Source: an uncultured bacterium
GTDB lineage: Bacteria; Patescibacteriota; Minisyncoccia; UBA6257; 2-01-FULL-56-20
Length of the DNA stretch: 64,000 bases
Direction of reading: 5' to 3'
Assembly (NCBI GenBank): GCA_963830935.1
Contig: CAWHOC010000005.1
Span: 38,023 to 102,022 of the forward strand
How positions within the stretch are numbered: position 1 is the stretch's first letter; every line of letters begins with the position of its first letter. Below, piece after piece: positions 1-63,712 of the stretch. A program made the translations under genes and the position numbers. The notes below the pieces were generated by a model. It was not told the origin of the DNA and searched no databases. It worked only from the letters and a program-made list of their open reading frames with translations.

Positions 1-313
1 CTTTAACACTGAACGTTGCAGGTAAAATTCCACCGTTCCGCCAGGCTTCTCCGAGAGATAAATATTGATGGCCAAAATCTTCACCAGCTTTGGTGGTATG
101 CATGAGTTGGGCTGTGTACTTTACTGAAAACGTATCCGATGGGATTATGTCCTGATGAATCCTGATCAGCAAATACAGATCGGCCATTTCTACTGAAGAA
201 TATAGCTCTTCATAATCCTGCAAGAACATGGCCATATCCATACCGTCGGTCATGTCGAAGCTCACAAAGACGACGAGCGTAGGGAGGCCTTGATGATTGG
301 CTAATTGAGACAT
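1..313 (-). CDS. hypothetical protein, 3' part only (runs off window start)
   Basis: On the minus strand an ORF begins at about 313 with ATG (MSQLANHQGLPTLVVFVSFDMTDGMD...) and has no stop before position 1. It is absent from the ORF track because it is truncated. No recognisable motif. Confidence 0.3.
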   Translation of the reverse strand, partial: MSQLANHQGLPTLVVFVSFDMTDGMDMAMFLQDYEELYSSVEMADLYLLIRIHQDIIPSDTFSVKYTAQLMHTTKAGEDFGHQYLSLGEAWRNGGILPATFSVK

Positions 314-425
314 CGCCTTACCGTGATGCCTCTCTAGTTTGCTTCTGTGATTTCGGTCCCTCTTTTTTGAAATTGCTGCAAGTTCCTCATATGAGATCTC
401 CGGATTATACGTCGGCACATTTGCG

Positions 426-680
426 TCAACGCAGTGATTTGACCTCACATATGGCGATGACCTCCCCGGCACTATTCAGGACCTCATAGTCGGGCGTCCT
501 TGTATCCTTAACTTCCAACACTTTCTTGAGTGTCAGAGCATACCAACGCTCGAGCACAATTTTGATTGCCTTTTCACCAAGCTCACTTTGATATTGTTCG
601 AGTTTCTCCATATGGAGAATATTCTTCCTCCGAACTTCCGCCCTTGCAAGGCGGGTTGCCCGATCGCCTGCGCGGGTCAT
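426..680 (-). CDS. hypothetical small protein
   Basis: 84-aa track ORF ending ...DYEVLNSAGEVIAICEVKSLR, which weakly resembles a (D/E)xK nuclease core motif. This is a weak call. Confidence 0.3.
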   Translation of the reverse strand: MTRAGDRATRLARAEVRRKNILHMEKLEQYQSELGEKAIKIVLERWYALTLKKVLEVKDTRTPDYEVLNSAGEVIAICEVKSLR

Positions 681-795
681 GGACCAACGTCCCTTGAACC
701 GCGCCCTGACTTGTGCCCCCGCGAAGAATCGAACTTCGATTACAAGATCCGCAATCTTGCGTCCTATCCGTTGAACGACGAGGGCAAACGCAACC

Positions 796-854
796 GGATG
801 TCCTTTTGAGACGGAAATGCCACGTTGAAACGTGACCGTCTCAAAAGGACATCT
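796..854. repeat. long-stem hairpin, copy C of the conserved-loop hairpin family
   Basis: 18-bp perfect inverted repeat gatgtccttttgagacgg / ccgtctcaaaaggacatc with a 21-nt loop aaatgccacgttgaaacgtga. The loop shares AATGCCAC...GTGA with the reverse-complemented loop of copies A and B. It lies about 60 nt past the 3' end of the minus-strand gene 914..1363. Confidence 0.5.
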
Positions 855-913
855 GGTTGTTTATTGTTGATAATAAAAGAACAAGAGAAGGATACTAGAA
901 TCTCAGGAATTTT

Positions 914-1363
914 TCAATGGAATCGACGAGGGTCGGCTGGTGCTCGATCTCTTTGAGCACCAGCTTCAGGTTCGCGCGGATCTCCGCCACTTTCGGCGCC
1001 GGCACAATAAGCGAGAGCGCCGGCCGGATGCGCGAGCGGAAATAGAACGACCACATCCGCCCATTCCCCGTCGTCCAGGTCCGCGCTCCAGCTCTCGAAC
1101 TCCTTCATGGAGTATGACTTGTATCCCCCGATATTGAGCTCGGTGTCCGTCAGCGTAAACGTGAGCGTTCTCGGCGCCTTGTTCCCCCACACGATGAAAA
1201 GCATTTCCGCGATCACAATGAAAAAGCCGAATAGAAAATCTTTCTGCCACACCGAGAACGCGATGATGAGCGCGGCAGCGATGATGGAGATCCAATACCA
1301 CGAGACCTCCTTCTCGCGATACTCGAATTCCGGCGCCTCCCATGTTGTTTCGAACTTTGCCAT
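914..1363 (-). CDS. hypothetical membrane protein
   Basis: Track ORF with N-terminal hydrophobic segments (WYWISIIAAALIIAFSVW, FLFGFFIVIAEMLFIVWG). The C-terminal 50 aa look like read-through and may not be real. Confidence 0.4.
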   Translation of the reverse strand: MAKFETTWEAPEFEYREKEVSWYWISIIAAALIIAFSVWQKDFLFGFFIVIAEMLFIVWGNKAPRTLTFTLTDTELNIGGYKSYSMKEFESWSADLDDGEWADVVVLFPLAHPAGALAYCAGAESGGDPREPEAGAQRDRAPADPRRFH

Positions 1364-15764: not shown

Positions 15765-15811
15765 GGTTTGTAGTTCACTATTGCTTATTATGCGGGAGCC
15801 CATACCTAACT

Positions 15812-15848
15812 TACATTTTAAAATCCCAAATTGGGATTTCAAAATGTA
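15812..15848. repeat. palindromic repeat element, copy 1 (GAAATCCCAA-N-TTGGGATTTC core)
   Basis: tacattttaaaatcccaaattgggatttcaaaatgta. A near-identical copy in inverted orientation lies at about 51489-51518. Both are intergenic. Confidence 0.5.
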
Positions 15849-15850
15849 AA

Positions 15851-16330
15851 TCAGACGTGCCGATCTGCGACATTCGTTGCAGCGTAACTGTCCGGCTTGA
15901 TCTTCACTTCAAAATTATTGGCGCGAATCATGCCGACGATCTCGTTGATGACCGCCTTTGTGGGACCGTTCATACCGATGTCCGCGTGGATCTCGAACTC
16001 GAAATCCGGAAGCGGGAACTTTTTGAGCTCGGCGAGGAGGCCCTGCGCGACCTCGAGCGAGATCACCGCCTCGCGGATCATCCGGTCGCGAAGCGTGTGA
16101 AACTTCCCAAGCTCGAAGCGACGGTAGAAATAGCGGCCGCCGTTGCCGATGCGGTGCACGACGACCGCGTTCACGAAGTCGGCGTTCTTATTTGAGAGGA
16201 GCTGGGAGTCGGTGCCGATCGTCACGCGATATTTGCGCAAAAGATCCGTTCCCATGAACGCGATGATCTCAGCCACCACTTCCGGCACCGTAAGGCGCAT
16301 TCCGAGCGAACTGATAAAGGTATCTGGCAT
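15851..16330 (-). CDS. DUF458/YkuK-like RNase H-fold protein
   Basis: ...RVTIGTDSQ...ADFVNAVVVHRIGNGGRYFYRR...TLRDRMIREAVISLEVA... matches the YkuK family pattern. Confidence 0.5.
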   Translation of the reverse strand: MPDTFISSLGMRLTVPEVVAEIIAFMGTDLLRKYRVTIGTDSQLLSNKNADFVNAVVVHRIGNGGRYFYRRFELGKFHTLRDRMIREAVISLEVAQGLLAELKKFPLPDFEFEIHADIGMNGPTKAVINEIVGMIRANNFEVKIKPDSYAATNVADRHV

Positions 16331-33450: not shown

Positions 33451-33537
33451 AGCACATGCTCTCTCCCATCAGCCCGGCAGCTTAAAAACTGTCGGGCATT
33501 TTTTATCTTTTAAAAAAAAGTGCGTGGGGCGCGGAAT

Positions 33538-33567
33538 TCAAAAAAGGCCCCGTGGGGCCTTTTTTGA
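33538..33567. terminator. bidirectional rho-independent terminator
   Basis: aaaaaaggccccgtggggccttttttg, located between convergent genes. Confidence 0.6.
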
Positions 33568-33585
33568 TATCGCACAAAAGATCTG

Positions 33586-38268: not shown

Positions 38269-38295
38269 CTGTTTATATCTTCACCGCTCGTCATC

Positions 38296-38378
38296 TGACC
38301 GTATGCGCATATCCTTTTTTATGCGCTCACCGTCCTCGTGTGGCATTCGCGCATAAAAAGGATATGCGCATACGGTCA
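38296..38378. repeat. long-stem hairpin, copy A of the conserved-loop family; overlaps the gyrA stop codon
   Basis: tgaccgtatgcgcatatccttttttatgcgc - TCACCGTCCTCGTGTGGCATT - cgcgcataaaaaggatatgcgcatacggtca: a stem of about 31 bp with one bulge, and a 21-nt loop identical to that of copy B. Confidence 0.55.
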
Positions 38379-40814
38379 GATCACCACTGTTCCTGCTACG
38401 CGATCGCCGCTCTTAAGATCCATGATGTGCACGCCTTGCGCGGAACGCCCCGTCTTCCGCACCGTCGAGATCTCCGTGCGGATCATCTGGCCTTTCGCCG
38501 AAAGCGCGAATATCTCCTTCTCTTCCGACACAACGTGCGCGGAAACGACCGGGCCCGTCTTCGGCGTCACCTCGGCGGTCTTGATCCCCGACCCGCCGCG
38601 GCTCTGTACTTTGTATTCCTTGAGCGACGTCTGCTTCGCGAAGCCGTGCTCCATGACGACGAGCAGCATTGCCGCATCTCCTCTTATTATATCAAAGCCG
38701 GCAACCTCGTCGTTCTGTTTTTTCAATTTGATCGCGCGAACACCCGCTGCGGTGCGGCCCATCGGGCGCACCTGCTTCTCATCAAAGCGGATGGACTGGC
38801 CCTGCCGCGTGGCGAGCACCACCTGCTCCGCGCCCGTGGTGAGCTTGGCCCACTTGAGGTGATCGCCCTTTTTGAGCGAGAGCGCGATGATGCCGGTGCG
38901 GCGGATGTTCTCAAAATCCTCTAGTGGCGTTTTTTTGATGACGCCCTGCTTGGTGACCATCATGAGATATTTCCGCCCGGTTTTTCCTTCGGCCTTCGCC
39001 CCCTTCGCGGAATAGCTGACGATCGCGCTCACGTTCTCGTCGGCGGGGAGCTCCAAAAAGTTCTGGATGGCTCTGCCTTTGGAGGTACGCGTCGCCTGCG
39101 GGATCTCGTAGACCTTCGTCTGGAACACGCGCCCGCGGTCGGTAAAGAAGAGCACGTTGTCGTGCGTGTTCGCACTGAAGAAGTGCGAGAGGAAATCCTC
39201 ATCGGCCACTTCGGAACCGATCAGCCCCTTGCCGCCACGCCGCTGCACCTTGAACGTGCCCGGCGGCAGGCGCTTGATGTATCCCCCGCCGGAAACGGTG
39301 ACGATCGCCTCCTCTTCCGGAATCAAATCCTCGTCGCTCATCGCCTCCACCGCGCGGCCGACCACCTTCGTGCGCCGCTCGTCGCCATACTTGTCCTTGA
39401 GCTCCGTCACTTCGTCCTTGACGATCTTCAGCACCCGCGCGGTGCTCTTTAATATCGCCTTGAGCTCGTCAATGAGCGCGTGCTTTTCCTTGAGTTCCGT
39501 CTCAATCTTCAACCGCTCGAGCGCGGCGAGCGTCTGCAGGCGCATTTCCAAAATTGCCGTCGCCTGGAGATCGCTCAACTTGAAGTTCTTCATCAGGTTC
39601 GCGTGCGCGACCTCTTTGTCTTCGGACTTGCGGATCGTCGCGATCACCCTATCGATCGCGTCGAGCGCGATCATGAGCCCTTCCAAAATATGCGCGCGTT
39701 CCTCTGCTTTGCGAAGGTCGAACTTCGTGCGGCGCGTGATGATCGTCTTCCGGTGCTCAAGATATTCCGCCAGAATATCCTTCAGCGTGAGCAGGCGCGG
39801 CTCGATGCCGTTCACAAGCGCGATCATGTTGAAGTTGAAGTTCTTTTCGAGGTCGGTGTGCTTGTAGAGCCAGTTTAACACTTTCTGCGGAGCGACGTCG
39901 TTCTTGAGCTCGATCACAATGCGCATGCCGTCGCGGTCGGACTCGTCGCGCAGGTCGCGGATGCCCTCGATCTTTTTGTCCTGCGCGAGCTCCGCGATCG
40001 TGCTGATGAGCTCGGACTTGTTCACCTGGTACGGGATCTCGGTGACGATGATGTCGAACTGGCGGCTATTCTTCTTCTCCACGATCTCCGCCTTCGCGCG
40101 CGTGATGATGCCGCCGCGTCCGGAGACGTACGCTTCTTTGATCGCCTTATTGTCGTAAATGATCCCGCCGGTCGGGAAATCCGGCCCTTTGACGAACTGC
40201 AAAAGGTCCTCGCTCGTGGCGTCGCCGTTATCGGCAAGATAAAGGATGGCGTCGGCGATCTCGCCCAGATTGTGCGGGGGAATGCTCGTCGCCATACCGA
40301 CGGCAATGCCGAGCGCACCGTTCAGTAAAAGGTTCGGCAGCTTCGCGGGAAGCACGGTCGGCTCGTTGCGCGTGCCGTCGTAGTTCGGGATCCAATCCAC
40401 CGTTTCCTTCTCAATGTCCGAGAGCATCTCGTTCGCGATCGCGGCGAGCTTGGCTTCGGTATAACGCATGGCGGCCGGCGGGTCACCGTCCACCGAACCA
40501 AAGTTCCCCTGCCCGCGCACGAGCGGATAGCGCAAGGAAAAGTTCTGCGCCATGCGGACCATCGTGTCATATATAGAGGAGTCGCCGTGCGGATGATACT
40601 TCGCCATCGTTTCGCCGACCACATACGCGGATTTGCGAAACTTGGCGGTGGAAAGCACGCCCATGTCCCACATCGCCCACAACACGCGGCGGTGCACCGG
40701 CTTCATGCCGTCACGAACGTCGGGCAGGGCGCGCGCGACGATCACCGACATCGCGTAGCTAAGATACGAATCGCCCAGCTCTTTGGTAATTTCCTGTGGT
40801 TCCATGTCTGCCAT
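38376..40814 (-). CDS. gyrA: DNA gyrase subunit A
   Basis: 812 aa, with the active-site region ...AAMRYTE... and C-terminal beta-pinwheel repeats. Confidence 0.95.
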
Positions 40815-45821: not shown

Positions 45822-45883
45822 ACCTCACAGTCTATCGCGAAGGGAGGGAATGTCAAAAGATAGAAAAACCCTGTAGACAACTA

Positions 45884-45925
45884 GTTTACAACTTTGAATT
45901 TCTAATATACACTAAAGTTGTAAAC
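45884..45925. promoter_or_regulatory. 12-bp perfect inverted repeat 3 nt upstream of the start codon
   Basis: gtttacaacttt - N18 - aaagttgtaaac, ending 3 nt before the ATG at 45928. A candidate operator or translational control hairpin. Confidence 0.35.
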
Positions 45926-45927
45926 AA

Positions 45928-46986
45928 ATGAACCCCATAAAACAAAAGGTTTTCGATATCATCAAGTCCGAAAGGGAAGTTAAAGCGAGCCGCCTTGAAG
46001 GCCGACTTAACGTCAGCCGACAATATCTCCACAGGTTTCTGAAAGAGTTACGCGAAGAGGGCAAGATCGCCCTTTTGGGAAAAGCAAATCGGGCCGTGTA
46101 TGTCTTTGCGAATAAAGAGGCCTTACTTACTGCACGAAAAAAAATAAAGAAATTCCATCGTTTCCTGCATAATAAAGATATTTCCGAAGATATCGTTCTC
46201 GATTCTATAAAACGTGATTCGGGAATCTTCATCGACGTGCCCGAGGACATCGGCCGCATACTCAACTACGCATTCACCGAAATGATGAACAACGCCATAG
46301 AACATTCTCGATCGAGAGAGATCGAGGTCCTCATGATGCGTGACAGGTCTTATATTCGTTTCGAGATCACCGACTCGGGAATTGGAATATTCCATCATAT
46401 TATGGCAACACGCCATCTGCGGAATGAGCTGGAAGCGATACAAGACCTCCTGAAAGGAAAACAAACAACCGATCCCCAACACCATACCGGGGAAGGGATT
46501 TTTTTTACATCAAAAGTCGCCGACGCATTTACTATAAAAAGTTCTACCAAGGAATTAACTTTTAATAACCTTATCGACGACGTATTTGTCCGGGATATCA
46601 AGAATCGTAGAGGTACCAAAGTGACATTTACGATTGCTATTGATTCATCCAGAGATCTGCAGGAGGTTTTTGGTGAATATAGCACGAGTTCATACGAATT
46701 CGATAAAACCAAGGTTGCAGTACGGTTATATAAAACGGGAACTCTTTATATTTCCCGTTCCCAAGCCCGCAGAATCATGACTGGTCTTGAGAAATTTAAA
46801 ACCGTCATCTTGGATTTCTCGCATATTAAATCGGCTGGCCAAGGATTTGCCGATGAGATATTCCGCGTATGGAGAATTCATAATCCGGAAGTGAAAGTGG
46901 AGGCCATCAACACCAATGAAAATATTGACTTCATGATAAAACGAGCCCTTAAGGAAGGAGCGAAAACTCAACAGGGACTTTTTTAG
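45928..46986 (+). CDS. wHTH + GHKL (HATPase_c, RsbW-like) + C-terminal STAS-like (DUF4325-like) domain protein
   Basis: The N-terminus QKVFDIIKSEREVKASRLEGRLNVSRQYLHRFLKELREEGKI is a winged HTH. The middle region IFIDVPEDIGRILNYAFTEMMNNAIEHS...ITDSGIGI is a GHKL N-box/G-box. The C-terminus ...TVILDFSHIKSAGQGFADEIF is STAS-like. Confidence 0.55.
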   Translation: MNPIKQKVFDIIKSEREVKASRLEGRLNVSRQYLHRFLKELREEGKIALLGKANRAVYVFANKEALLTARKKIKKFHRFLHNKDISEDIVLDSIKRDSGIFIDVPEDIGRILNYAFTEMMNNAIEHSRSREIEVLMMRDRSYIRFEITDSGIGIFHHIMATRHLRNELEAIQDLLKGKQTTDPQHHTGEGIFFTSKVADAFTIKSSTKELTFNNLIDDVFVRDIKNRRGTKVTFTIAIDSSRDLQEVFGEYSTSSYEFDKTKVAVRLYKTGTLYISRSQARRIMTGLEKFKTVILDFSHIKSAGQGFADEIFRVWRIHNPEVKVEAINTNENIDFMIKRALKEGAKTQQGLF

Positions 46987-48215: not shown

Positions 48216-48337
48216 GCTCACGCGCTCACTGCGTTCGCTTTTGAGAACCCTCGGTTCTCAATACTCTCCTACACGGGAGGGGCAGCCTGCCCCTCCCGAC
48301 CCCACCCCTCTCGTTCGATTCCCGTCTGCATCGAGCA

Positions 48338-48413
48338 GCAAGAAAACAAAAACAGGCATATTCGCCGAACGGTCCATCTTCGGGAGGCGAATATGCTGTT
48401 TTTGTTTTCTTGC
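48338..48413. repeat. 27-bp-stem hairpin immediately 3' of the tmRNA gene
   Basis: gcaagaaaacaaaaacaggcatattcgcc - 20-nt loop - ggcgaatatgctgtttttgttttcttgc. Located between the tmRNA 3' end and the att-like repeat, near a 25-bp perfect palindrome cgggaggggcag-c-ctgcccctcccg at about 48274-48298. Confidence 0.5.
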
Positions 48414-48415
48414 TG

Positions 48416-48732
48416 TGGAAGCGGGCGGAATCGAACCGCCGTGTAAAGATAATGCCGATGGGCCGTCTACGAGTGTAGTTTAGCTAGGCTAAGCGAAGTG
48501 ATCATATTTTCGCGCCGGGCGTATGATCGTCAACCTGGCGCTAGTCCCCTTATATAAGACCGGTATCAGTCCAAGGAACCCGGACCGGCCGATCCCGAAG
48601 GGCTAGGCGTAAGCCAGAGCGAACTTCGGAGCTGCAACTTTGGAGTTGGCAGTTATAGGTTGTGCAACAATAACGACGTTGCCAACGACTCGCAAACCCA
48701 TGGATTATCTTTATCGAAGCCAATGCGCTCCC
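48416..48732 (-). ncRNA. ssrA: tmRNA (ssrA)
   Basis: Minus-strand 5' end GGGAGCG-CATTG-GCTTCGAT (tmRNA consensus GGGGnnGnnnnGGnUUCGAC...). The 3' end GGCGG-TTCGATT-CCGCC-CGCTTCC-A is a T-arm with an acceptor that pairs with the 5' end. About 317 nt. Candidate tag ORF ...GCC AAC TCC AAA GTT GCA GCT CCG AAG TTC GCT CTG GCT TAC GCC TAG (ANSKVAAPKFALAYA*). Confidence 0.75.
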
Positions 48733-51433: not shown

Positions 51434-51488
51434 AACGCTACCCCGCGGGCGTTCTTCGTGAATTTAATATAGCCAGCATAAATTCGGG

Positions 51489-51518
51489 TTTTTGAAATCC
51501 CAATTTGGGATTTCAAAA
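51489..51518. repeat. palindromic repeat element, copy 2 (inverted relative to copy 1)
   Basis: tttttgaaatcccaatttgggatttcaaaa lies between the convergent rplT and NUDIX genes. It matches the reverse complement of 15812-15848 over about 26 nt. Confidence 0.5.
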
Positions 51519-51552
51519 GACAATAATATCCGGCACCACGAGCCTTTTGCTT

Positions 51553-56085: not shown

Positions 56086-56115
56086 AGTTTCTTTCTCTTA
56101 TTATACTGATTAGCG

Positions 56116-56193
56116 AAACAGAAGCGATGTCTTTTTATACGCTCACCGTCCTCGTGTGGCATTTGCGTATAAAAAGGACATCGCTTCTGTTTC
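56116..56193. repeat. long-stem hairpin, copy B of the conserved-loop family; overlaps the stop codon of the Clp ATPase gene
   Basis: gaaacagaagcgatgtctttttatacgc - TCACCGTCCTCGTGTGGCATT(t) - gcgtataaaaaggacatcgcttctgtttc. It has the same loop as copy A and an unrelated stem. Confidence 0.55.
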
Positions 56194-62575: not shown

Positions 62576-63712
62576 TTATACTACGAAATGCCAGATTTCG
62601 TAAACCGCGGCGAGGATGAACGCGATCGCGACAACGTCGAGCAGTACCTTCTCGCGCCGCGCGAGTGCGAGCGTCCGGCGTCCGACGGAGAGGATCAAAA
62701 GATATTGCGTGCTGATGAACACGCCTCCGGCGAGGCCGACGATCGCGAGGAAATTATTGAATCCCAACAACACGGCGCCGAGCGGGAGCAGGATGATGAT
62801 CGCGCGGGAGAGATAGCTGTTCCACCCGAGATCTTTTTCCATCGCGCCGCGGATCTCCCGCGCGATCGGCACCGACACGACCGCCACCGAAAAGAGCCCG
62901 ACCGCGGCGAGAATATCTTTCCTCCATACGGGCCAGCTCGCGATGCCGGAGATCGTATCGGACGTCACGTGCGACACCGTTCCGATCACGCCGGCGGCAA
63001 AGAGCCAGTAGAGCAGCCCCGCGAAAGCGGTGCCAAGAGCAAAGAGCCAGAAGGCCCCGGGGATAGCCGGTTGCTTTTCGCCATCGTGGACGATCTCTTT
63101 TTTATACGCAAGTTCGTACACCGGCTCGACGGCCGTCCATCCGGCGAGCGCGAATATGGCAACGCCGAACGGGAGAAAAAAATTGACGACTCCGGGAACC
63201 GCGAGGGGCACGCTCGCGAACACCGCGCCGGGATGGCCGGAGAAGAAGATAAAAAGAATGGCGAATGAGACAAGCGCGATGCCCACGCCCTCGAACCACG
63301 CGATCCGCCCCTCGCTTCCCCACACGAGGACCGCGAGCAGGAACCAGAATATGCCGAGTGCGGCGCCATGCGAGATCCCCGGGAAGAGTATCTGCAGGAA
63401 CTGCGTTCCGAGCACGAGATAGGCGACGAAGCTGAGCAACAGGCCGATCACGATCGCGACGAAGCCGATCCAAAATCCCGTCATGCCGAAATAGTTCCGG
63501 GCGAGGCCGAGCAATCGCTCTTTTTCATCCACCGCGGCGAGCGTCCGCAGATAAAGAATATGGGCAACGGAGATGATCGCGATGATCGCGATGAAGTAGC
63601 CGAGCGCGATCAGCCATCCCGACGACTGAATGACGTACGGCACCGCAAAGACGCCTTCTCCGATCGTCGCCGCAGCGACGATCGCCGCGATGGTCACATA
63701 CTTCATAGACAT
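62576..63712 (-). CDS. amino-acid permease-like polytopic membrane transporter
   Basis: 378 aa with about 11 TM helices, Gly-rich helix 1 and an APC-like fold. No definitive signature. Confidence 0.5.
   Translation of the reverse strand: MSMKYVTIAAIVAAATIGEGVFAVPYVIQSSGWLIALGYFIAIIAIISVAHILYLRTLAAVDEKERLLGLARNYFGMTGFWIGFVAIVIGLLLSFVAYLVLGTQFLQILFPGISHGAALGIFWFLLAVLVWGSEGRIAWFEGVGIALVSFAILFIFFSGHPGAVFASVPLAVPGVVNFFLPFGVAIFALAGWTAVEPVYELAYKKEIVHDGEKQPAIPGAFWLFALGTAFAGLLYWLFAAGVIGTVSHVTSDTISGIASWPVWRKDILAAVGLFSVAVVSVPIAREIRGAMEKDLGWNSYLSRAIIILLPLGAVLLGFNNFLAIVGLAGGVFISTQYLLILSVGRRTLALARREKVLLDVVAIAFILAAVYEIWHFVV

What the first reader, a model, noticed from the sequence alone, without database searches (positions are those of the whole stretch)
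796..854. Hairpin family copy C with a related loop in inverted orientation
An 18-bp perfect stem with a 21-nt loop aaatgccacgttgaaacgtga. Reverse-complemented, this is tcacgtttcaacgtggcattt, which shares TCAC...GTGGCATT with the loop of copies A and B. Its orientation relative to the neighbouring minus-strand genes is opposite to that of A and B. This argues against a strictly strand-specific RNA function and leaves a DNA-level role open.
Basis: seen in the sequence. Interest (0 to 1): 0.5.

Follow-up and report, generated by a model that had tools for sequence, protein, structure and literature searches.

The report
Mobile hairpin repeat, reversed copy
The hairpin at 791-859 is a real, reversed copy of a small palindromic repeat that has recently spread into the tiny gaps between genes of an uncultured Paceibacteria (CPR) bacterium; here it landed in the leader of a tRNA gene, and the family appears undescribed.

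Summary
Window 791-859 is a 24-bp hairpin with one G·T pair and a 21-nt loop. A covariance model of the family scores it 80 bits on the minus strand and 40 on the plus strand. Copies A (38290-38384) and B (56115-56193) score best on the plus strand.

The "loop" is structured: a 5-bp mini-hairpin with a tetraloop, supported by compensatory changes. About 15 copies occur in Paceibacteria (CPR) genomes and peat metagenomes, none in viral contigs or Rfam. They share a ~47-nt core, while the outer stems are long, near-perfect and mostly unrelated.

All three window copies are recent insertions. One close relative (gyrA 96% identical) has overlapping or 2-nt-spaced genes at sites A and B. At site C it has a 21-nt gap between a gene and tRNA-Arg. 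Copy C is a 93-nt block (hairpin plus T-rich tail) in the pre-tRNA leader. It is reversed as a whole, so no U-tract follows the hairpin on the transcribed strand.

My best reading is a REP/MITE-like mobile palindrome of unknown mobilisation, tolerated where it does not block expression. Orientation is biased (8-10 to 2) but cannot separate RNA-level from DNA-level causes. Several sister families with other loops coexist. I file it as a new variant of a known kind, of moderate interest.

The parts
791..859 (-). Copy C of the hairpin family. Canonical orientation, with the loop reading TCACGTTTCAACGTGGCATTT, is on the minus strand.
   Evidence: Inverted repeat of 24 nt, 96% complementary. Covariance model gives 80.1 bits on minus and 39.7 on plus. 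Fold z is about -10.
815..835 (-). Conserved apical module. Plus-strand coordinates: mini-stem 821-825 with 830-834, tetraloop 826-829, six unpaired bases 815-820 and one at 835.
   Evidence: Folds. Mini-stem pairs are 100% paired across 14 copies, and two pairs changed on both sides in the A/B/L012 variant.
786..878 (-). The 93-nt inserted block: aaacg (786-790), hairpin (791-859) and T-rich tail tttattgttgataataaaa (860-878). It replaces 5 nt (tcact) of the empty site.
   Evidence: Present in near-identical strain L031. Absent from L034 (stop codon, 21 nt, tRNA) and from L032/L033 (16 nt).
713..785 (-). tRNA-Arg (anticodon GCG), 5 nt downstream of the hairpin on the transcribed strand.
   Evidence: ARAGORN. 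Rfam tRNA at 56.8 bits.
889..917 (-). Promoter-like site TTGAAA-17-TATCCT at the end of the upstream gene, pointing at the hairpin and tRNA.
   Evidence: Consensus scan found 3 sites against 0.1 expected. The sequence is conserved in empty sites L034 and L035. Function is inferred.
895..1363 (-). Upstream gene, a conserved 155-aa Paceibacterota hypothetical protein. It is frameshifted in the window by an extra G near 1052.
   Evidence: There is a single indel against L031.
38290..38384 (+). Copy A, between gyrA and a solute-binding protein gene.
   Evidence: The insertion is absent from L052, where the two genes overlap as TAATG.
56115..56193 (+). Copy B, between ClpC-like and MFS genes, followed by a 27-nt tail carrying TATAAT.
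   Evidence: The insertion is absent from L024, L027 and L030. The tail is shared with L019.

Best explanation
Copy C is a young, non-autonomous copy of a REP/MITE-like mobile palindromic element specific to a Paceibacteria (CPR) lineage.

**The unit.** It is a long hairpin plus a 17-29-nt tail on one fixed side. The conserved ~47-nt core is CCTTTT-N3-ACGG / U-CACGU-NNNN-ACGUG-GCAUUU / CCGT-N3-AAAAGG.

**How it behaves.** The unit spreads at the DNA level into very short intergenic spacers, without target-site duplication and with loss of 1-5 target bases. It persists where its transcript does no harm. It may serve as a terminator, a processing site or a 3'-end stabiliser.

**Copy C.** It entered the leader between the promoter and tRNA-Arg in the minority orientation. 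The transcribed strand therefore carries the hairpin without a following U-tract. Read-through and RNase P processing should still give the tRNA.

**Shown:** family membership, structure, insertion polymorphism, whole-unit reversal, orientation counts.

**Inferred:** mobility mechanism, terminator logic, RNase P removal. The conserved centre is most simply the recognition determinant of the unknown propagating machinery. The perfect outer stems probably owe something to templated palindrome extension or correction.
For: **Family and structure.**
- About 15 copies share an invariant or near-invariant centre, while most outer stems (21-36 bp) are unrelated.
- 99.4% of cells are paired and 13 of 23 pairs changed on both sides. 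The covariation score is 0.53 against 0.13 in shuffles, with 0 of 500 reaching it.

**Gains.**
- Site B: ClpC and MFS are 2 nt apart (TAGccATG) in L024 and L027 and 14 nt apart in L030, against 106 nt in the window.
- Site A: gyrA and the SBP gene overlap (TAATG) in L052, against 109 inserted nt in the window.
- Site C is empty in L032, L033, L034 and L036 and filled only in the window and the 99.35%-identical L031.
- The relative that lacks all three has no family copy in 65 kb sampled.

**Unit with polarity.**
- B and L019 (between ftsE and ftsX) share the tail AATCAG(A)GTATAATAAGAGAAA.
- L003 and L005 lie at different genes but share a tail and a similar outer stem.
- In C the tail lies on the side predicted by its loop orientation.

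**Birth and death.** A decayed half-copy lies at L001 4840-4880.

**Other points.**
- At least six sister families with other loops share the architecture. Three of them occupy one orthologous site in three relatives.
- The 3' arm of A is complementary to the pre-existing gyrA end. The 3' arm of L001 is complementary to the conserved Hsp20 end GACTAG.
- Nothing matched in Rfam, in viral contigs or in the papers searched.
Against: - No transposase, RAYT or other candidate mobilising gene appears next to any copy, or in the Pfam listings of roughly 130 kb of non-redundant relatives' loci.
- The window itself was only partly annotated.
- No target duplication, conserved terminal repeat or common target sequence was found.
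- I cannot explain how each copy gets its own perfect outer stem. No donor copy with the same outer stem was found.
- The 21-nt centre is identical in genomes whose proteins differ by 10-25%. That fits purifying selection for a host function as well as recent spread.
- Hsp20 sites in three genomes all carry a copy, which could mean long retention.
- The terminator argument for C rests on sequence only. About half of the copies have no U-rich tract at all.
Confidence: 0.55

Rival explanations
1. It is a host-functional structured RNA motif: a 3'-UTR or terminator hairpin whose apical module binds a protein or RNA and controls termination, processing or stability. Under this reading the copies are kept by purifying selection and not spread by mobility.
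For: - The loop and parts of the inner stem are invariant, while three stem positions covary through six variants.
- Orientation relative to the upstream gene is biased at 8-10 to 2.
- The stem starts within -9 to +7 nt of the stop codon in most copies.
- About half of the copies look like bidirectional terminators, with an A-tract, a GC stem and a T-tract.
- In mRNA sense the common type shows AGGA in a tetraloop.
Against: - Copies are absent at orthologous sites in close relatives and lie between formerly overlapping genes.
- A decayed copy exists.
- Unrelated loop families replace one another at the same site.
- C is reversed and has tetraloop UGAA/UUCA, so it has no GGA on either strand.
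- A has no U-tract.
- Stems are almost free of G·U pairs, which is unusual for selection acting on RNA alone.
Confidence: 0.25
2. It is a single-strand DNA element handled by a hairpin-recognising HUH-type enzyme, as in REP/RAYT or IS200/IS605-derived elements. Orientation would then be set by the replication strand.
For: - There is no target duplication and the unit is asymmetric, a hairpin plus a tail.
- The TCAC strand has negative GC skew at 10 of 14 copies. These include L017, which is reversed relative to its genes.
Against: - No Y1 or RAYT gene was seen in any annotated locus.
- Stems are not conserved and no GTAG-like guide was seen.
- C and the Hsp20-site copies break the skew rule.
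- Skew over 1-12 kb is noisy and tied to gene direction.
Confidence: 0.12
3. C was inserted in the usual orientation, and only its centre later flipped by recombination or template switching between the perfect arms. This would resemble the flip/flop of parvovirus hairpins.
For: - Perfect 24-bp arms make such an inversion possible without changing the stem.
- Other loop families also occur in both orientations.
Against: The T-rich tail lies on the side expected for a fully reversed unit. That matches the hairpin-then-tail polarity of A, B, L019, L003 and L005. This rests on few cases.
Confidence: 0.06

Closest known systems
REP / BIME elements (repetitive extragenic palindromes) of proteobacteria
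   Same: Both are short extragenic palindromes in many copies. They often sit just after genes, occur in either orientation, form hairpins in mRNA, can act as stabilisers or terminators, and are gained and lost between strains.
   Different: REP stems are the conserved part and carry a GTAG-type motif, and REPs come with a RAYT gene. Here the centre and inner stem are conserved, outer stems differ between copies, stems reach 36 bp, and no RAYT was seen.
MITEs that fold as hairpins (Correia/CREE, ERIC, RUP)
   Same: Both are non-autonomous, about 100 nt, and intergenic. Both are sometimes co-transcribed and can carry promoter-like or terminator-like signals.
   Different: MITEs have conserved terminal inverted repeats and target-site duplications. 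None was found at sites A, B or C, where 1-5 target bases were lost instead.
Bidirectional intrinsic terminators
   Same: Many copies have an A-tract, a GC-rich stem and a T-tract, and sit at gene ends. Plain terminators of that design occur in the same genomes, for example window 33534-33571. One orthologous site has a plain terminator in L032 and a family copy in L030.
   Different: A terminator needs no conserved 21-nt centre. About half of the copies have no U-rich tract. C has one only on the non-transcribed strand.
Integron attC sites
   Same: Both are folded single-strand hairpins in which structure is conserved more than stem sequence.
   Different: attC conserves the base of the stem (R''/R' boxes) and extrahelical bases, and its centre varies. 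That is the opposite pattern, and no integron integrase or cassette array is present.
Parvovirus terminal hairpins (flip/flop)
   Same: Both have a perfect stem with an asymmetric centre found in both orientations.
   Different: Those are replicon ends resolved by Rep nicking. The elements here are internal chromosomal sites. The resemblance is an analogy only.

Membership tests
Hairpin family of copies A and B (this window) | Centre U-CACGU-N4-ACGUG-GCAUU(U) with a paired mini-stem | tested here: met
   C reads TCACGTTTCAACGTGGCATTT on the minus strand. The model gives 80.1 bits. Mini-stem cells are 100% paired.
Hairpin family of copies A and B (this window) | Inner stem CCTTTT-N3-ACGG paired with CCGT-N3-AAAAGG, extended by a long near-perfect outer stem | tested here: met
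   C has CCTTTTGAGACGG / CCGTCTCAAAAGG, the same inner stem as L001, and 24 bp in all.
Hairpin family of copies A and B (this window) | Intergenic position, present or absent between close relatives | tested here: met
REP / RAYT system | Stem sequence conserved among copies, with a GTAG-type motif at the foot | tested here: not met
   Most outer stems are unrelated between copies, and no GTAG was seen on reading the stems.
REP / RAYT system | A RAYT (Y1 transposase) gene in the genome, usually flanked by REPs | tested here: inconclusive
   None appears among the Pfam-listed genes of the relatives' loci or next to A, B or C. Only small parts of each genome were seen.
MITE | Target-site duplication flanking the element | tested here: not met
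   Filled and empty sites compared at A, B and C show no direct repeat and 1-5 target bases replaced.
MITE | Conserved terminal inverted repeats matching an autonomous transposon | tested here: not met
   The ends of the palindrome differ between copies, and no partner element was found.
Intrinsic terminator | Stable GC-containing hairpin followed at once by a U-rich tract on the transcribed strand | tested here: not met
   For C on the gene strand the hairpin is followed by CGUUUGCCC. The T-rich tract TTTATTGTTGAT is on the plus strand. The simple scan cannot score loops over 8 nt.
Integron attC | R'' (RYYYAAC) and R' (GTTRRRY) boxes at the stem base, and an integron integrase nearby | tested here: not met
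   C has ACGCAAC and GTTGTTT, neither of which fits. A and B have nothing similar. No integrase lies next to the copies.
Any Rfam RNA family | Score at or above the family's gathering threshold | tested here: not met
   The whole window gave only tRNAs and tmRNA. At E up to 10 there were only generic miRNA-precursor hairpin matches, far below threshold.
CsrA-type binding hairpin | GGA in the loop of a short hairpin | tested here: not met
   The common type shows AGGA in mRNA sense. C has UGAA on plus and UUCA on minus.
IS200/IS605-derived element (PATE) | Two distinct subterminal hairpins and a TnpA/TnpB partner | tested here: not met
   There is a single hairpin plus a tail. No such genes appear in the annotated loci.

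The most novel reading that the evidence does not exclude
These hairpins, with at least six sister families carrying other loops, would be a new class of mobile element in CPR bacteria. The unit would be a hairpin plus a tail, and its conserved apical module would be read by an unknown hairpin-loop-specific enzyme. Its long perfect stems would be made or renewed by templated palindrome extension. The elements could then wedge themselves between overlapping genes and swap with ordinary terminators.
Probability: 0.3. Interest if true: 0.75.

Novelty: new variant of a known kind. Interest (0 to 1): 0.5.

Why it matters
CPR bacteria have very small, tightly packed genomes and are thought to carry few repeats. 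Here a family of about 100-nt palindromes has recently split overlapping gene pairs (gyrA/SBP, ClpC/MFS, ftsE/ftsX) and entered a tRNA leader. Several sister families turn over at the same sites.

If this is mobile DNA, it is a way of remodelling operon punctuation in reduced genomes, and a handle for finding a new hairpin-specific enzyme. If it is a host RNA signal, it is a new class of terminator or processing module.

Either way, the conservation pattern is the reverse of REP elements: a fixed centre with free but perfect stems. That makes it a good test case for how palindromes are created and kept perfect.

Tried and rejected
- **Known RNA family.** Rfam gave nothing at gathering thresholds, and only generic hairpin matches at E up to 10.
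- **Phage origin.** The loop pattern is absent from 2.9 million viral contigs.
- **Outer stems as spacer-like matches to phages.** Three outer-stem words gave 0, 1 and 5 exact hits, about what chance gives for 17-18-mers. The one I inspected does not extend beyond the word.
- **Donor copies with the same outer stem or tail.** None was found in the held sequence, apart from the B/L019 tail.
- **L019 as an orthologue of site B.** This was wrong: L019 lies between ftsE and ftsX.
- **L003 and L005 as orthologous sites.** This was wrong: one follows HisRS and the other follows tuf.
- **The element as a simple insertion into the loop of an older terminator.**
  - It fits the A/T tracts at the CSD site (L032 against L030), but the GC stem differs too.
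  - Sites A, B and C had no earlier hairpin.
- **A sigma-54 or sigma-70 promoter in the core.** No consistent fit on reading. Only C gives promoter-like hits.
- **A small ORF in the loop.** There is no conserved frame.
- **G·U versus A·C mismatches to pick the functional strand.** There were too few mismatches (about 5 against 2) to decide.
- **The window's own record.** The exact gyrA product was not on record.
- **Literature.** Four searches found nothing on such elements in CPR bacteria.

Full report
**1. The observation**

Window 791-859 is an inverted repeat with 24-nt arms (791-814 and 836-859), 96% complementary, around a 21-nt centre, aaatgccacgttgaaacgtga. Position 796/854 is a G·T pair, and five more pairs follow outward.

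Either strand folds at about -45 to -50 kcal/mol, with z about -10 against shuffles. The near-identical strain L031 (99.35% over 3.25 kb) has A instead of G at 796 on the window's plus strand. That makes the stem perfect there, so the G·T pair is a recent substitution in the window.

The similarity to copies A (38290-38384) and B (56115-56193) is not chance:
- TCAC-N4-14-GTGGCATT occurs three times against 0.02 expected.
- A covariance model scores C at 80.1 bits on the minus strand and 39.7 on the plus strand.
- A and B score 60 bits on the plus strand.

**2. Anatomy of the family**

I used one scan of genome contigs and one of metagenome contigs with a loop-plus-inner-stem pattern. These found true members only in Paceibacteria, Minisyncoccia or Parcubacteria MAGs and in peat or soil metagenomes (L001-L003, L005, L008, L009, L012, L014-L017, L019, L023). 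The other hits have no stem and are chance. One more copy turned up in L030.

All members share this core:
- CCTTTT-N3-ACGG, then
- U-CACGU-UCCU-ACGUG-GCAUUU, then
- CCGT-N3-AAAAGG.

Outside the core the stem continues to 21-36 bp with 0-2 mismatches, and its sequence is unrelated between most copies.

The "loop" is itself a 5-bp mini-hairpin with a tetraloop, with one unpaired base on one side and six on the other. The A/B/L012 variant changes two of the five pairs on both sides (CACGU/ACGUG to CACCG/CGGUG). C keeps the stem and changes the tetraloop to UUCA.

On 14 copies aligned to the model:
- 99.4% of cells are paired.
- 13 of 23 pairs have changes on both sides.
- The covariation score is 0.53 against 0.13 in shuffles (0 of 500 reach it).
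- Slid controls give 39-59% pairing.

A perfect DNA palindrome pairs on both strands. This therefore proves a conserved hairpin but not whether RNA or DNA is what matters. Rfam has no such family, viral contigs have no match, and four literature searches found nothing.

**3. All three window copies are insertions**

I used homologs of neighbouring proteins to fetch orthologous loci.

*Site B.*
- In L024 (ClpC 91% identical) and L027 (88%), the ClpC stop and the MFS start are TAGccATG.
- In L030 (86%) they are 14 nt apart.
- In the window they are 106 nt apart. The gap holds a new stop codon inside the stem, hairpin B and a 27-nt tail.

*Site A.*
- In L052 (gyrA 96% identical) gyrA and the solute-binding gene overlap as gtgatcTAATGcca.
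- The window has 109 inserted bases.
- The last nine bases of the 3' arm (TCAGATgAC) are complementary to the pre-existing gyrA end.

*Site C.*
- The upstream gene is a conserved 155-aa protein.
- In L034 its stop codon is followed by 21 nt and then tRNA-Arg(GCG). In L032 and L033 it is followed by 16 nt, and L036 also has no hairpin.
- Only the window and L031 carry the hairpin.
- Aligning filled and empty sites gives a 93-nt block (window 786-878): aaacg, the hairpin, then tttattgttgataataaaa. It replaces tcact.

L024, L034 and L052 are parts of one 136-kb contig of one relative. That relative lacks all three insertions and has no family copy in the 65 kb sampled. No site shows a target duplication.

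**4. The unit has a polarity, and C is reversed as a whole**

B and L019 lie at different genes (ClpC/MFS and ftsE/ftsX). They share the tail AATCAG(A)GTATAATAAGAGAAA just after the hairpin, including 15 identical bases. L003 (after HisRS, facing a convergent gene) and L005 (after tuf) share a tail (GAGGnnGATGAAGATG) and a similar outer stem.

In A, B, L019, L003 and L005 the tail lies on the side towards which the strand reading AAAUGCC...ACGUGA runs. In C the 19-nt T-rich tail lies on that same side of its loop, which is the plus strand. So the whole unit is reversed and not only the centre. This rests on few cases.

**5. Orientation statistics**

*Relative to the upstream gene.* The TCAC strand is antisense at:
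- A and B;
- L019 and L012;
- L030, L005 and L002;
- the Hsp20 site, in three genomes: L001, L014 and L023.

It is sense at C and L017, and L003 lies between convergent genes. That is 8-10 against 2, which is suggestive but not conclusive.

*Relative to replication.* GC skew is negative along the whole window, so A, B and C share one replichore and C is the odd one out on that count too. Local skew of the TCAC strand is negative at 10 of 14 copies, including L017. It is positive at C and the Hsp20 sites. Short-range skew is noisy and tied to gene direction. Neither rule is clean, and C breaks both.

**6. Why C may be reversed**

A promoter-like site (TTGAAA-17-TATCCT, 917->889 on the minus strand) lies at the end of the upstream gene, and its sequence is kept in the empty sites. 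If it is the tRNA promoter, hairpin C lies in the pre-tRNA leader.

On the transcribed strand the hairpin is followed by CGUUUGCCC. In the usual orientation it would be followed by UUUAUUGUUGAU, which would make a strong terminator in front of the tRNA. I infer that only the reversed insertion was tolerated and that RNase P removes the leader. No expression data were available to test this.

**7. The wider setting**

The same genomes hold at least six other hairpin families with the same design and different centres:

| Family | Centre |
|---|---|
| 2 | GCAT-TTAATCTTC-ATGC |
| 3 | GTGATAAGAATAATTC |
| 4 | GTTGTTTCTTAACACTA |
| 5 | GAGTrGACGTyCTTACGTCGG |
| 6 | AATCCCGAAGGGTGAGCCC |
| 7 | TTCGCC-GAACGGTC...GGA-GGCGAA |

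- Family 7 occurs in the window at 48336-48415, abutting the tmRNA 3' end.
- Some families occur in both orientations.
- Between the convergent bPH_2 and LiaF-TM genes, three close relatives carry three different centres in similar A/T-tract frames.
- After the CSD gene, whose protein is identical in the two loci apart from one extra N-terminal Met in L030, L032 has a plain terminator. L030 has a family copy with the same A/T tracts but another GC stem.
- Three genomes carry a copy after Hsp20 with the same core and very different outer stems. Two of these have hsp20 genes 92% identical at DNA level.
- A decayed half-copy lies at L001 4840-4880.
- About half of the copies have A- and T-tracts like bidirectional terminators, and the rest do not.

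**8. Interpretation**

Four things point to a proliferating, non-autonomous element of the REP/MITE kind:
- recent gains at three sites;
- shared tails at unrelated sites;
- decay of at least one copy;
- patchy distribution among close relatives.

What is new is the conservation pattern, a fixed centre and inner stem with free but perfect outer stems. Also new are the lack of target duplication and the ability to sit between formerly overlapping genes.

The main rival is a host RNA signal bound through the apical module. The invariant centre and the orientation bias fit it. The insertion polymorphism, the decay, the replacement by other families and copy C itself fit it less well.

I could not identify any mobilising or binding protein. 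I also cannot explain how each copy acquires its own perfect outer stem. The pairing of the 3' arms of A and L001 with pre-existing gene ends hints at templated palindrome extension.

**9. Verdict**

I file this as a new variant of a known kind, with moderate interest.

Noticed in passing
window 48336-48415: A long hairpin abuts the 3' end of the tmRNA gene (48413-48732, minus strand). It has 20 outer and about 11 inner pairs, with centre GAACGGTCCATCTTCGGGA. The same centre family occurs in L024 20035-20097 and L036 19888-19960, so it is a sister family of the one studied.
   Followed up: partly
L001 620-711, 3765-3842, 4906-4986, 7055-7137; L003 327-409; L008 6422-6523; L030 13198-13272, 16261-16340, 17386-17464, 18602-18676, 19327-19412; L024 18822-18899: At least five further hairpin families have conserved centres and unrelated perfect stems of 27-46 bp. 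Some occur in both orientations. One (GACGU-UCYU-ACGUC) has the same mini-hairpin design as the family studied.
   Followed up: partly
L027 14182-14256, L024 20028-20097, L030 18586-18676: At one orthologous site between convergent bPH_2 and LiaF-TM genes, three close relatives carry hairpins with three different centres in similar A/T-tract frames.
   Followed up: partly
window 15809-15851, 51487-51521 and 1952-1986; also L034 9786-9818 and L024 16318-16354: A separate set of short-loop palindromes of the type TTTTnAAATCCCA-AWT-TGGGATTTnAAAA (or ...GTCACA-GAT-TGTGAC...). They look like operator or terminator sites.
   Followed up: no
window ~1052 and 1757-1759: Two neighbouring genes are disrupted relative to the 99.35%-identical L031. 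An extra G frameshifts the 155-aa gene, and an in-frame stop splits the ORF6N-domain gene (1379-1915). This is either decay or assembly error.
   Followed up: partly
window 1-712: The sequence 3' of tRNA-Arg matches L033, where it is followed by a serine recombinase gene. L032 has the same upstream protein but lacks it. It is probably an element integrated next to the tRNA, and it is independent of hairpin C.
   Followed up: partly
L001 4840-4880: A decayed half-copy of the family. The left arm and a mutated centre (…ACGTAACATTT) remain, the right arm is lost, and a hairpin of another family follows directly.
   Followed up: partly
window 38303-38320: The outer stem of copy A contains TATGCGCATA. 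This equals its own inner-stem arms (TATGCGC / GCGCATA) joined without the centre, which hints at nested or duplicated palindrome growth.
   Followed up: no
window 33534-33571; 45880-45929; 62794-62871: One plain bidirectional terminator (AAAAAAGGCCC-CGTG-GGGCCTTTTTT) and two other hairpins with 16-18-bp stems and 18- and 42-nt centres that were not classified.
   Followed up: no
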